DNA from: a virus
Lineage: Duplodnaviria; Caudoviricetes
Virus record (IMG/VR): IMGVR_UViG_3300030376_006242
Reading direction: 5' to 3' (one strand)
DNA: 64,000 nucleotides
Positions 46,808 to 49,303 of the stretch are shown piece by piece (positions within the stretch are counted from its first letter, which is position 1; each line of letters opens with the position of its first letter). Under the pieces are notes generated by a model that worked only from the letters and a program-made list of their open reading frames with translations, searched no databases and was not told the DNA's origin. Both the position numbers and the translations under genes were made by a program.

Positions 46808-47683
46808 CTATTCCAAAGTTTGCTGTGGCATAAATCCATGTACAACTTTTTGTGCTAGTATTTTCCATTCAGCAAGTTCGCCAATTTCTTGAATATGATG
46901 TGCTTTAGTTCCGTCATGATAAGAACAACGTATCTGCATCATTCCTTTTTCGGGTCTAGCATCTGCGGTAACACCTATTGCTGTTTGACAATTTCCATTT
47001 ACTAATTCTAATACATAGCGTTCTGTCATTAGTTCTATTGTTGGCCATTCTAGTATCTGCGGATTCCATATGTCTTTCATTTTGACATTATCACTTCTAA
47101 TCTGTACAACAACTTTGCCTTGTCCTGCCGCAGGTAGTAATTCTGTTTCGGGCATTACAGTATGTTGAACTTGAATTTTTAATCTATCCAAAGCACATTT
47201 TGCCATTATGATTCCATCTACCTCTTGCTTTGAAATTAAATCTATTCTTGTTTGAATATTTCCTCTAATAGGTACAAACCGTAAATCAGGTCTTTGGTCT
47301 GATAACATTTTTGCTCTACGCGGAGCACTTGTTCCTATTCTGTATCCGCTTGGAATAGAATCAAAATTTTCAAAAGGACCAATTAAAACATCTCGTCTAT
47401 CTCCGCGATCCCATACACAACCTAATATTTCTGTGCCGTCAGCAATTTCAATACCAACATCTTTAGCACTGTGTATGGCGCAATCTATTTCACCTGAAAG
47501 TAATTTGTCTTCTATAGCAGAACAAAAAATATGTTTGCCACCCATTTCATGAATAGGAGTTGTTTGATCTATATCGCCTTGACTTTTTATTTGAATCAGT
47601 TCGTAAGGTTGAACTAAACCTGATGCGGCTCCATCTGCTTGTCTAATGGCGAGAGGAGAACCTCGTGTGCCAATTTTTATCAT
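46808..47683 (-). CDS. hemC: Porphobilinogen deaminase (hydroxymethylbilane synthase)
   Basis: GTRGSPLA, HSAKD, GTSAPRR, IRGNIQTR, PAAGQG and cofactor Cys in GNCQTAIG. Confidence 0.95.
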   Translation of the reverse strand: MIKIGTRGSPLAIRQADGAASGLVQPYELIQIKSQGDIDQTTPIHEMGGKHIFCSAIEDKLLSGEIDCAIHSAKDVGIEIADGTEILGCVWDRGDRRDVLIGPFENFDSIPSGYRIGTSAPRRAKMLSDQRPDLRFVPIRGNIQTRIDLISKQEVDGIIMAKCALDRLKIQVQHTVMPETELLPAAGQGKVVVQIRSDNVKMKDIWNPQILEWPTIELMTERYVLELVNGNCQTAIGVTADARPEKGMMQIRCSYHDGTKAHHIQEIGELAEWKILAQKVVHGFMPQQTLE

Positions 47684-48990: not shown

Positions 48991-49033
48991 TCATTATGTG
49001 TTAATCGCATACCAGTTATGCTAAATACATATA

Positions 49034-49078
49034 CGTTCAGGCATCAGGCCCGGAAGTAGCATACAGCGAAGGAACGCA
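49034..49078 (+). ncRNA. Glutamine-I (glnA motif) riboswitch
   Basis: CGUUC/GAACG P1, GGC/GCC P2, CGGAAGUA...GAAG E-loop core and short P3. Confidence 0.85.
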
Positions 49079-49105
49079 CCTAAACTTTAACAAAGGGAGG
49101 GTGAC

Positions 49106-49303
49106 ATGATAGGACGATTCACCCATTTATTTAAAAAGCGAGCCGAGAAGAGTGCGATGCGTAAAAAAGCAGAAGCAATGTTCTCTAGCAAGGAAGAAGT
49201 TAATATAAATGGAAACGGAACATCTGGATATACTGTCAAAGCAGGAACCAACAAAGGTAAAATTTTAGGACACATATCCAAGAAATCTACTAATAACTGG
49301 TAG
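49106..49303 (+). CDS. 65-aa basic peptide downstream of the riboswitch
   Basis: GGGAGG RBS; lies directly 3' of the glnA motif. Confidence 0.75.
   Translation: MIGRFTHLFKKRAEKSAMRKKAEAMFSSKEEVNINGNGTSGYTVKAGTNKGKILGHISKKSTNNW

What the first reader, a model, noticed from the sequence alone, without database searches (positions are those of the whole stretch)
49021..49303. Phage late promoter, glutamine riboswitch and 65-aa basic peptide
Seen: CGUUC-AGGCAUCAGGCC-CGGAAGUA-GCAUACAGC-GAAG-GAACG-CAC starts 6 nt after a late-type CTAAATA box, the same offset at which leaderless late ATGs sit in this window. CACCU just 3' of P1 could pair with GGGUG overlapping the GGGAGG RBS. Known: this matches the glnA/glutamine-I riboswitch architecture. 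Glutamine riboswitches regulate nitrogen genes, including a cyanobacterial glutamine synthetase inactivating factor. Inference: the phage senses host glutamine late in infection and gates a small basic peptide. The peptide may act on glutamine synthetase or lysis timing, making this a metabolite-sensing phage decision module.
Basis: partly seen in the sequence, partly recalled or inferred. Interest (0 to 1): 0.85.

Follow-up and report, generated by a model that had tools for sequence, protein, structure and literature searches.

The report
Phage glutamine riboswitch gating a micro-protein
A large marine phage carries a genuine glutamine-sensing RNA switch at the very start of a late transcript, and it should turn on a 65-residue basic protein; the switch type is already known in phages, but the protein family, its relatives in SAR11 ocean bacteria and those bacteria's own different leader RNA appear undescribed.

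Summary
Window 49032-49080 (+) is the only Rfam hit in the window: glutamine riboswitch RF01739, 42.5 bits against a gathering score of 35. All three parts recur as one cassette: 71 of 75 viral contigs fetched by the peptide alone carry the aptamer. All aptamer stems vary by compensatory changes, one pair of the CACCU/GGGUG anti-Shine-Dalgarno helix covaries, and a TAAATA box ends 6-9 nt before P1 in 59 of 129 phage aptamers. The most likely mechanism is a late transcript that starts at the aptamer, with translation switched on by glutamine, as in cyanobacterial gifB.

Phage glutamine riboswitches are published, and this scan has noted them on other DNA (281 notes). The cargo is what is new. 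It belongs to an unnamed family of 1,736 clusters, found in Pelagibacter phage isolates without the switch and in SAR11 chromosomes. There it sits behind a tandem-pseudoknot leader absent from Rfam, or rarely behind a glutamine riboswitch. A second micro-protein family shows the same leader swap.

The peptide's function is open. Leads point to glutamine synthetase (a paralogue beside glnA, a weak co-fold) and to SAM decarboxylase (over 100 fusions, speD next door).

The parts
49021..49027 (+). Late-promoter-like box CTAAATA (core TAAATA 49022-49027). It ends 6 nt before P1; the predicted transcript start at about 49032-49034 is inferred, not mapped.
   Evidence: TAAATA is invariant in 14 aligned cassettes while the flanks do not align. 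Of 129 phage aptamers, 75 have the box within 40 nt upstream; 59 of those lie 6-9 nt from P1, with a mode of 6. The same box sits 6-23 nt before gene starts in the window, including structural genes.
49032..49080 (+). Glutamine riboswitch aptamer, type 1 (glnA RNA). P1 is 49034-38/49072-76, P2 is 49040-42/49048-50, P3 is 49059-60/49066-67; the junctions are CGGAAGUA and GAAG.
   Evidence: RF01739 at 42.5 bits against a gathering score of 35, full model length. In related loci, 96.7% of cells pair and all P2 and P3 pairs show changes on both sides; slid controls pair at 30-46%. P1 covaries in further loci: CGUUU/AAACG and CGUUG/CAACG.
49077..49081 (+). Anti-Shine-Dalgarno CACCU. Its first C corresponds to the C that forms the long-range 'linchpin' pair with a junction G when glutamine binds.
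   Evidence: CAC is invariant. The helix with 49099-49103 is 100% paired in 14 loci, with C-G changed to U-A in four loci and to U-G in one. The mechanism is as described for gifB, quoting Ren et al..
49095..49103 (+). Ribosome-binding site GGGAGG (49095-49100), overlapped by GGGUG (49099-49103), the partner of the anti-SD.
   Evidence: Sequence; pair counts.
49106..49303 (+). Gene for a 65-aa basic micro-protein (pI 10.5, 14 K+R against 4 D+E, no hydrophobic segment). Predicted N-terminal helix, then the conserved motif EV-INGNGTSGY-VK-G-NKGK-LGH. This report calls the family F1.
   Evidence: phrog_32989 at E 1.4e-10 and no Pfam family. 1,736 protein clusters at E<=0.001. 39% of differing codons are synonymous in frame, against 8-10% in the other two frames. 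In-frame natural fusions to SpeD exist.

Best explanation
This is a working cassette of three parts.

1. A T4-type late promoter box makes the late transcript begin at, or within a few bases of, the aptamer's first stem.
2. The aptamer is a type-1 glutamine riboswitch. Without glutamine, the five bases just 3' of P1 (CACCU) pair with GGGUG across the ribosome-binding site and block initiation. With glutamine bound, the first C of CACCU is drawn into the aptamer's long-range G-C pair, the short blocking helix opens, and the 65-codon gene is translated. It is a translational ON switch, as in cyanobacterial gifB.
3. The product is a small, very basic, largely unstructured protein of a family that phages share with SAR11 (Pelagibacteraceae) chromosomes. 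It most likely acts on the infected cell's nitrogen or polyamine metabolism. My leading single target is glutamine synthetase.

Shown here: family membership of the aptamer, covariation in the aptamer and the blocking helix, conservation of the box and its spacing, coding constraint, and the family's distribution.

Inferred: the transcript start, glutamine binding, the direction of the switch, and the protein's target.
For: - RF01739 hit above the gathering score, full length. 19 of 20 diverse related loci also pass it, at 42.5-65.4 bits.
- Loci fetched by the peptide alone carry the aptamer in 71 of 75 cases.
- Aptamer and anti-SD helix: 96.7% of cells pair, 9 pairs change on both sides, and 0 of 500 shuffles reach the covariation score. 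The anti-SD helix is 100% paired, with C-G changed to U-A.
- TAAATA is invariant and fixed at 6-9 nt from P1.
- The phage has T4-type gp32-like SSB, UvsX, UvsY and primase genes.
- The published gifB mechanism is identical in logic.
- Coding: synonymous excess in frame, 1,736 clusters, in-frame fusions.
- Link to hosts: every homologue in an isolated phage is from a Pelagibacter phage. About 90 chromosomal hits are nearly all Pelagibacteraceae. In two SAR11-family genomes the same gene sits behind the same riboswitch and platform.
Against: - There are no experimental data: no ligand binding, no mapped 5' end, no detected peptide.
- The window's aptamer is the lowest-scoring of the set, with a 3-bp P2 and a 2-bp P3.
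- Thermodynamic folding does not recover the aptamer (z -1.05). It instead pairs GGGUGA with UCACCC inside the ORF.
- The box is CTAAATA, not the T4 consensus TATAAATA, and its count in the window is not above chance.
- No gp55 or gp33 was sought or seen, and the whole genome is not held.
- Pelagibacter podophage copies of the gene have no riboswitch, so glutamine control is not essential to the protein's role.
- The phage's host is unknown.
Confidence: 0.8

Rival explanations
1. Specific target, glutamine synthetase. The F1 micro-protein would be a functional analogue, not a homologue, of the cyanobacterial GS-inactivating factors IF7/IF17. Made when glutamine is high, it would bind and damp GS in the infected cell. 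SAR11 would use its own copies for the same purpose, in place of the PII/adenylylation system it lacks.
For: - It has the same riboswitch class and platform as gifB/IF17.
- SAR11 lacks GlnB, GlnD, GlnK and NtrBC.
- A 56-aa paralogue lies 3 nt beyond the glnA stop, convergent, in four SAR11 genomes of two lineages. It is the only family member found in three of them.
- Controlled co-fold of two GlnA chains plus that paralogue: verdict 'weak support', score 0.55 against a best control of 0.02. That mark was reached by 58 of 80 solved complexes and 2 of 110 mismatched pairs. At 0.60 or under, however, it was reached by only 7 of those 80 solved complexes and by both mismatches that passed. The runs agree in at least 0% of contacts, and partner pLDDT is at least 33. 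The job used my own alignments and two copies, unlike the calibration.
- The protein is basic and predicted disordered, as I recall IF7 to be (from memory).
Against: - No Pfam DUF4278 or any other match.
- One of three co-fold runs scored 0.00, and the tool states that such a pass is more often wrong than right unless the guess was already likely.
- The glnA neighbour is convergent, and only 4 of 41 genomes have it.
- The strong SpeD association is unexplained under this reading.
- The published Melnitz study says its OM43 host lacks glnA, yet that phage has a riboswitch and micropeptide of another family.
Confidence: 0.25
2. Specific target, S-adenosylmethionine decarboxylase. F1 would be a detachable regulatory or targeting tail of SpeD. 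Glutamine-gated supply of the free tail would tune polyamine synthesis, which is needed for packaging DNA, to the cell's nitrogen status.
For: - More than 100 distinct clusters of 186-209 aa carry the whole F1 sequence as a C-terminal extension of a PF02675 AdoMet_dc domain with the ...IIETSH... processing motif.
- The fusions sit in 30-60 kb phage contigs.
- L196 and L197 have speD, then the riboswitch, then F1.
- A SpeD-like ORF ends within 400 nt upstream, on the same strand, of 10 of 114 phage aptamers, ahead of at least four different peptide families.
Against: - The AlphaFold2 model of a fusion folds SpeD confidently (pLDDT about 90) but leaves the F1 part at 35-54, with no sign that it docks.
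- The window has no SpeD-like ORF.
- The SAR11 chromosomal speD is not next to any F1 gene.
- Adjacency followed by loss of the spacer could create fusions without any physical partnership.
Confidence: 0.2
3. The protein has no metabolic target. F1 would be a late structural, nucleic-acid-binding or lysis-module accessory protein, for example a basic counter-ion for packaged DNA. The riboswitch would only scale an expensive late product to nitrogen supply.
For: - Late-type promoter.
- Net charge about +10.
- In podophages the gene lies between tail genes and terminase. In fusion phages it lies just after the endolysin.
- Many unrelated short basic peptides follow phage glutamine aptamers.
Against: - Cellular SAR11 genomes keep one to several chromosomal copies among housekeeping genes, behind their own structured leader. 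That is hard to explain for a virion or lysis protein.
- It has no membrane segment.
- Fusion to an enzyme fits a DNA counter-ion poorly.
Confidence: 0.15
4. The aptamer is not an operating switch in this phage. It would be a decaying relic, or would act only on RNA stability or transcription, and the peptide would be made constitutively late.
For: It has the lowest score of the family (42.5 bits) and minimal P2 and P3 stems. The computed minimum-free-energy fold differs from the aptamer.
Against: - All conserved junction bases, P1 and the anti-SD/SD pairing are intact.
- The closest relatives (peptide 86-95% identical; L128-L132) keep the same short stems with changed loops, and the two scanned (L128, L132) still pass the gathering score.
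- No terminator-like hairpin follows.
- Small junction aptamers are commonly missed by energy folding (established knowledge).
Confidence: 0.06

Closest known systems
Type-1 glutamine riboswitch of Synechocystis gifB, controlling the GS-inactivating factor IF17 (Klahn et al. 2018, PMC6212724; structure by Ren et al. 2015 as quoted there)
   Same: Same Rfam family. Same logic: the C just 3' of P1 and the bases after it pair with the ribosome-binding site, and glutamine binding is proposed to melt that helix (translation ON). The cargo is a small basic protein.
   Different: The cargo is not DUF4278/IF17 and has no Pfam family. The transcript is driven by a phage late-type box rather than an NtcA-regulated promoter. 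The setting is a large phage with T4-type replication genes and a probable heterotrophic host. The GS target is untested.
Glutamine riboswitches of Melnitz (OM43 myophage), Pelagibacter phage Mosig and pelagimyophage MAGs (PMC9004378)
   Same: RF01739 aptamers in phages of streamlined marine heterotrophs. The Melnitz copy has the same CACUU...GAGUG platform.
   Different: That paper reads the riboswitch as controlling the upstream tmRNA, or lysis through curli pores. Here, and on re-reading Melnitz, the controlled gene is a small downstream ORF. In Melnitz this is an unannotated 32-codon ORF of another peptide family (L208:11470-11568).
glnA RNA and Downstream-peptide (glutamine-II) motifs ahead of short DUF4278/YRG ORFs in marine picocyanobacteria and cyanophages (Weinberg 2010 and Ames & Breaker 2011 from memory)
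   Same: An aptamer followed by a very short ORF. YRG-type peptides also follow 18 of 121 phage aptamers in my survey.
   Different: F1 is a different family, tied to SAR11 and its phages rather than to cyanobacteria.
T4-type late promoter (TATAAATA, read by gp55 with gp33 and the sliding clamp; established knowledge)
   Same: A TAAATA core at a fixed short distance ahead of late genes, here also directly ahead of ATGs.
   Different: The first base is C (CTAAATA). The late sigma factor of this phage was neither located nor sought here, and no start site is mapped.

Membership tests
Glutamine riboswitch, type 1 (glnA RNA, Rfam RF01739) | Covariance-model score at or above the curated gathering score, over the full model | tested here: met
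   42.5 bits against 35, model positions 1-53 of 53, E 6.8e-6.
Glutamine riboswitch, type 1 (glnA RNA, Rfam RF01739) | Three-stem junction (P1, P2, P3) supported by compensatory changes | tested here: met
   All 8 P2/P3 pairs change on both sides and 96.7% of cells pair, against 30-46% when slid. P1 variants CGUUU/AAACG and CGUUG/CAACG occur.
Glutamine riboswitch, type 1 (glnA RNA, Rfam RF01739) | Conserved junction bases (A after P1, CGGAAGUA, GAAG) and the 3' C for the long-range G-C pair | tested here: met
   All are present in the window and invariant in 14 loci.
Glutamine riboswitch, type 1 (glnA RNA, Rfam RF01739) | Selective binding of L-glutamine | not testable with these tools
   Needs in-line probing or ITC.
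Glutamine riboswitch, type 1 (glnA RNA, Rfam RF01739) | An expression platform that couples the aptamer to the downstream gene | tested here: met
   The CACCU/GGGUG helix over the SD is 100% paired in 14 loci, with one compensatory pair. The ATG lies 25-29 nt after the aptamer in all of them.
T4-type late promoter | TATAAATA-like -10 element at a fixed short distance from the transcript start | tested here: inconclusive
   The window has CTAAATA. The TAAATA core and its 6-9 nt spacing are conserved across loci, but the within-window count is not above chance and no 5' end is mapped.
T4-type late promoter | Phage-encoded late sigma (gp55) and co-activator (gp33) | not tested
   Only 64 kb of a larger genome is available. 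T4-type SSB, UvsX, UvsY and primase are present.
GS-inactivating factors IF7/IF17 (DUF4278) | Sequence membership (Pfam DUF4278 or similarity to IF7) | tested here: not met
   No Pfam family at E<=1 for the window peptide or the SAR11 copies.
GS-inactivating factors IF7/IF17 (DUF4278) | Binds and inhibits glutamine synthetase | tested here: inconclusive
   The co-fold gave 'weak support': 0.55 against a best control of 0.02, runs 0.00/0.55/0.63, 0% contact agreement, partner pLDDT at least 33. No biochemistry.
PHROG phrog_32989 (unknown function) | Profile match | tested here: met
   E 1.4e-10, 41.9 bits, residues 9-53.
EF-hand | Profile match above threshold, with the canonical 12-residue loop carrying an acidic position 12 | tested here: not met
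   Only sub-threshold: PDB profile E 0.038; Pfam EF-hand_7 at 14.3 bits against a cut-off of 30. Position 12 is not acidic.

The most novel reading that the evidence does not exclude
SAR11 would regulate nitrogen assimilation through riboswitch-gated micro-proteins. Its tandem-pseudoknot leader would be a new class of glutamine-sensing (or closely related nitrogen-metabolite-sensing) riboswitch. The F1 and F2 micro-proteins would be its effectors, acting on glutamine synthetase and/or SAM decarboxylase, and would fill the gap left by the missing PII system. Phages would have captured both effectors and rewired them under the classical glutamine-I aptamer plus a late promoter, to impose a 'nitrogen-replete' state late in infection.
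Probability: 0.2. Interest if true: 0.9.

Novelty: new variant of a known kind. Interest (0 to 1): 0.6.

Why it matters
The switch itself is ordinary, but what it controls is informative.

- It shows that the usual cargo of glutamine riboswitches in phages of marine heterotrophs is a set of unannotated micro-proteins. That changes the published reading of the Melnitz riboswitch.
- At least two of these micro-protein families are shared with SAR11 chromosomes, where a different structured leader, absent from Rfam, takes the aptamer's place. The same gene behind two leader types is the pattern that has exposed new riboswitch classes before.
- SAR11 is the most abundant marine heterotroph. How it regulates nitrogen assimilation without PII proteins is an open question (PMC3870248). 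These micro-proteins and their leader are concrete candidates that can be tested with short synthetic RNAs and peptides.
- The recurrent link to speD suggests a connection between glutamine sensing and polyamine supply during phage infection.

Tried and rejected
- **DNA similarity.** No phage record matches the locus or the L195 tmRNA-riboswitch-peptide stretch.
- **Whole genome.** Not held for this window.
- **Pelagiphage isolate homologues (L001-L007).** No riboswitch at E<=1. They are translationally coupled short forms, and the HTVC008M copy looks frameshifted.
- **Structure of the peptide alone.** pLDDT 58.7, too poor for a fold search.
- **Structure of a SpeD-F1 fusion.** The tail is not placed.
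- **Atlas look-up.** Only unnamed clusters below 0.85.
- **PDB profile and Pfam.** Only sub-threshold EF-hand-like hits.
- **Energy folding of the leader.** Does not recover the aptamer.
- **Sigma-70 promoter and intrinsic terminator scans.** Nothing above shuffles.
- **Box counts within the window.** Not enriched.
- **SAR11 leader against Rfam.** No hit at gathering score in 20 loci; only chance hits at E>2.
- **SAR11 leader model in 64 sources (the window, phage loci and six metagenome-bin contigs).** Nothing below E 0.08.
- **SAR11 gene neighbourhoods of the long forms.** Unrelated housekeeping genes.

Full report
**1. The observation**

Coordinates for every element are in the parts list.

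A scan of the whole window against Rfam at gathering thresholds returns one hit only. It is RF01739 (glutamine riboswitch) at 49032-49080 on the plus strand: 42.5 bits against a cut-off of 35, the full model matched, E 6.8e-6.

**2. The window's setting**

The window belongs to a phage.

- Its large terminase is about 51% identical to that of Pseudomonas jumbo phage PA5oct.
- It has T4-type gp32-like SSB, UvsX, UvsY, a primase, a DnaB-like helicase and a DNA polymerase.
- No phage record shares DNA with the locus.
- No whole genome is held. Earlier notes of this scan place the window inside a genome extending at least 160 kb further.

**3. Is the cassette real?**

I used two independent samplings of IMG/VR.

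In 14 of them, counting the window, the ORF starting 25-29 nt after the aptamer belongs to the window's peptide family.

*Sampling by the peptide.* Searching with the peptide alone found 454 viral stretches. Of the best 80, 75 have enough upstream sequence, and 71 of those carry the aptamer. The curated Rfam model confirmed 19 of 20 diverse ones at 42.5-65.4 bits.

*Alignment of 14 cassettes.* The flanks do not align, but three things are fixed:

- a TAAATA box;
- the aptamer core;
- CAC(C/U)(U/C) ... G(G/A)GUG just before the ATG.

*Pair counts.*

- 96.7% of cells pair, against 30-46% when the partner is slid.
- All eight P2/P3 pairs change on both sides.
- The five-pair anti-SD helix is 100% paired. 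One pair switches from C-G to U-A in four loci and to U-G in one.
- P1, invariant in that set, covaries in the larger set: CGUUU/AAACG and CGUUG/CAACG.

**4. The promoter**

Within the window the box is not more frequent than chance. Most intergenic copies do lie 6-23 nt before a gene start on the same strand. Three lie exactly 6 nt before an ATG, two of them ahead of a tail-tube and a virion protein gene.

The stronger evidence is comparative. Of 129 phage aptamers with 40 nt of upstream sequence, 75 have TAAATA there. In 59 of those the box ends 6-9 nt before P1, with a mode of 6 as in the window. T4 late promoters start transcription a few bases after TATAAATA (established knowledge). The aptamer would therefore sit at the very 5' end of a late mRNA.

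I did not locate or look for a gp55-type sigma factor, and no 5' end is mapped, so this step is inferred.

**5. Mechanism**

Klahn et al. describe the following for gifB. The C just 3' of P1 forms a long-range pair with a junction G when glutamine binds. That C and the bases after it can otherwise pair with the ribosome-binding site. Glutamine is proposed to melt this helix and allow initiation.

The phage leader has exactly this layout, with covariation. A translational ON switch is therefore the best-supported reading. Energy folding alone does not reproduce the aptamer, which is usual for small junction aptamers.

**6. What is known**

Glutamine riboswitches are reported in T4-like cyanophages. 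They are also reported in the OM43 phage Melnitz, Pelagibacter phage Mosig and pelagimyophage MAGs. This scan has noted phage glutamine riboswitches on other DNA before: 281 notes in at least 169 genomes, including one on a 28-aa peptide.

I re-read Melnitz. Its aptamer (L208:11399-11447, 52.8 bits) lies just 3' of the tmRNA. It is followed by CACUU...GAGUG and an unannotated 32-codon basic ORF, at a spot where GenBank annotates a minus-strand ORF. The published 'tmRNA controlled by a riboswitch' is more simply another riboswitch-micropeptide cassette.

**7. The cargo**

The 65-aa product has these properties:

- pI 10.5 and no hydrophobic segment;
- no Pfam family;
- a match to phrog_32989, of unknown function.

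A profile search finds 1,736 clusters, all unnamed. Codon differences are 39% synonymous in frame, against 8-10% in the other frames. AlphaFold2 gives a helix (residues 6-27) and a hairpin at low confidence.

Every homologue in an isolated phage is from a Pelagibacter phage, spanning podo-, sipho- and myoviruses. In the seven such loci fetched and scanned, the gene has no riboswitch.

**8. Host copies and a second leader**

About 90 hits in species-representative genomes are nearly all chromosomal Pelagibacteraceae, on contigs up to 397 kb and among housekeeping genes. They lack RF01739.

Instead they have their own conserved leader. It consists of two hairpins, each followed by an A-rich linker and a stretch complementary to its own loop. 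On a model-guided alignment of 31 distinct leaders:

- 97.8% of cells pair, against 17-34% when slid;
- both pseudoknot helices show compensatory changes;
- the middle pair of the first pseudoknot is A-U, U-A or G-C;
- three of the four pairs of the second pseudoknot each show two or more pair types.

The pseudoknot pairs were not part of the model that made the alignment. Rfam has nothing like this leader.

The leader model hits exactly once per genome in 20 of 81 SAR11-family genomes. Every hit is followed by a small ORF. That ORF is either F1 or a second family, F2 (48 aa...SRPRAK-NVINP-QKGI).

F2 is homologous to the 50-51-aa peptides that follow glutamine riboswitches in phages: hhalign 97.3%, E 1.8e-11; BLASTP 50% identity, E 2e-14.

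Conversely:

- The leader is not found in the phage loci tested.
- RF01739 is found in only 2 of 81 SAR11-family genomes. In both it precedes an F1 gene with the same platform.

So two unrelated micro-protein families each occur behind either leader. This suggests, but does not show, that the SAR11 leader does the same job as the glutamine aptamer.

**9. Function: two leads, neither decisive**

*Glutamine synthetase.*

- SAR11 lacks GlnB/GlnK/GlnD and NtrBC.
- A 56-aa paralogue abuts glnA in four genomes.
- A controlled co-fold of two GlnA chains with that paralogue gave 'weak support' (score 0.55, best control 0.02). The full calibration counts and caveats are set out under the glutamine-synthetase rival explanation.

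*SAM decarboxylase.*

- More than 100 clusters fuse the whole F1 sequence to the C-terminus of a SpeD domain.
- These fusions are in phage contigs at the end of the late/lysis module.
- speD directly precedes the riboswitch in L196/L197, and in 10 of 114 aptamer-selected loci with several cargo families.
- A fold of the fusion does not dock the tail.

I put the glutamine synthetase target at about 0.25, SpeD at about 0.2, and a non-metabolic late protein at about 0.15.

**10. Verdict**

The functional guess is only weakly supported.

The riboswitch is a standard member of a known class in a known kind of host genome. The cargo family, its chromosomal SAR11 relatives, the speD link and the alternative SAR11 leader are, as far as I could search, undescribed. 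They make the locus more useful than its class membership suggests.

Noticed in passing
L241:2906-2988, L220:2920-3003, L216:2906-2985, L266:2910-3003, L319:1501-1579 (SAR11 chromosomes): There is a conserved tandem H-type pseudoknot leader ahead of the SAR11 copies of two micro-protein families. It has no Rfam match. It is found once per genome in 20 of 81 SAR11-family genomes, and both pseudoknots covary. It is a candidate new riboswitch-like element.
   Followed up: partly
L208:11399-11568 (Methylophilales phage Melnitz, MZ577097 46398-46567): The published glutamine riboswitch of Melnitz is followed by a CACUU...GAGUG platform and an unannotated 32-codon basic ORF (L208:11470-11568). GenBank annotates a minus-strand ORF there instead. 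The riboswitch probably controls this ORF, not the upstream tmRNA.
   Followed up: partly
P0123-P0236; L301:4001-4582, L304:4001-4564; L196:2057-2695: Natural fusions of SAM decarboxylase (PF02675) with the whole F1 micro-protein occur in more than 100 clusters. In addition, speD sits directly upstream of glutamine riboswitch cassettes that carry several different peptide cargos.
   Followed up: partly
L289:1993-2163 (-), also L294, L295, L296: A 56-aa short paralogue of the family lies convergent to, and 3 nt from, the glnA stop codon, downstream of an iscA-like gene. This holds in four SAR11 genomes.
   Followed up: partly
L136:2340-2479 and L137: The RF01739 hit spans 140 nt. The aptamer has an insertion of about 90 nt inside one hairpin, recalling the 'gene inside a riboswitch hairpin' layouts noted elsewhere in this scan. 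The insert was not examined.
   Followed up: no
L195:518-1528: One viral contig carries, in a row, a SAM-V riboswitch (518-582), a permuted alpha-type tmRNA (901-1189), a glutamine riboswitch (1261-1314) and the F1 gene (1334-1528). The SAM-V riboswitch points to a SAR11-type host.
   Followed up: no
L005:1469-1640 (Pelagibacter phage HTVC008M): An unannotated copy of the F1 gene lies between the DNA end protector and baseplate genes. It reads in two frames, so it is frameshifted or there is a sequencing error.
   Followed up: no
window 49099-49104 with 49119-49124: GGGUGA at the ribosome-binding site can also pair with UCACCC in codons 5-7 of the ORF. This is the pairing chosen by energy folding. 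It could add a second layer of occlusion, but it is not conserved in all relatives.
   Followed up: no
window 46808-47683 (-): A 291-aa ORF begins MIKIGTRGSPLAIRQA and, from memory, looks like porphobilinogen deaminase (HemC). It has no PHROG match and was not tested further. That would be an unusual gene for a phage.
   Followed up: no
window 49106-49300; L289:1996-2163: The helix plus the E-V-x-I-N-G-N-G-T loop gives sub-threshold EF-hand-like matches in two libraries (PDB profile E 0.038; Pfam EF-hand_7 at 14.3 bits against a cut-off of 30). This is a possible metal-binding loop and remains unverified.
   Followed up: partly
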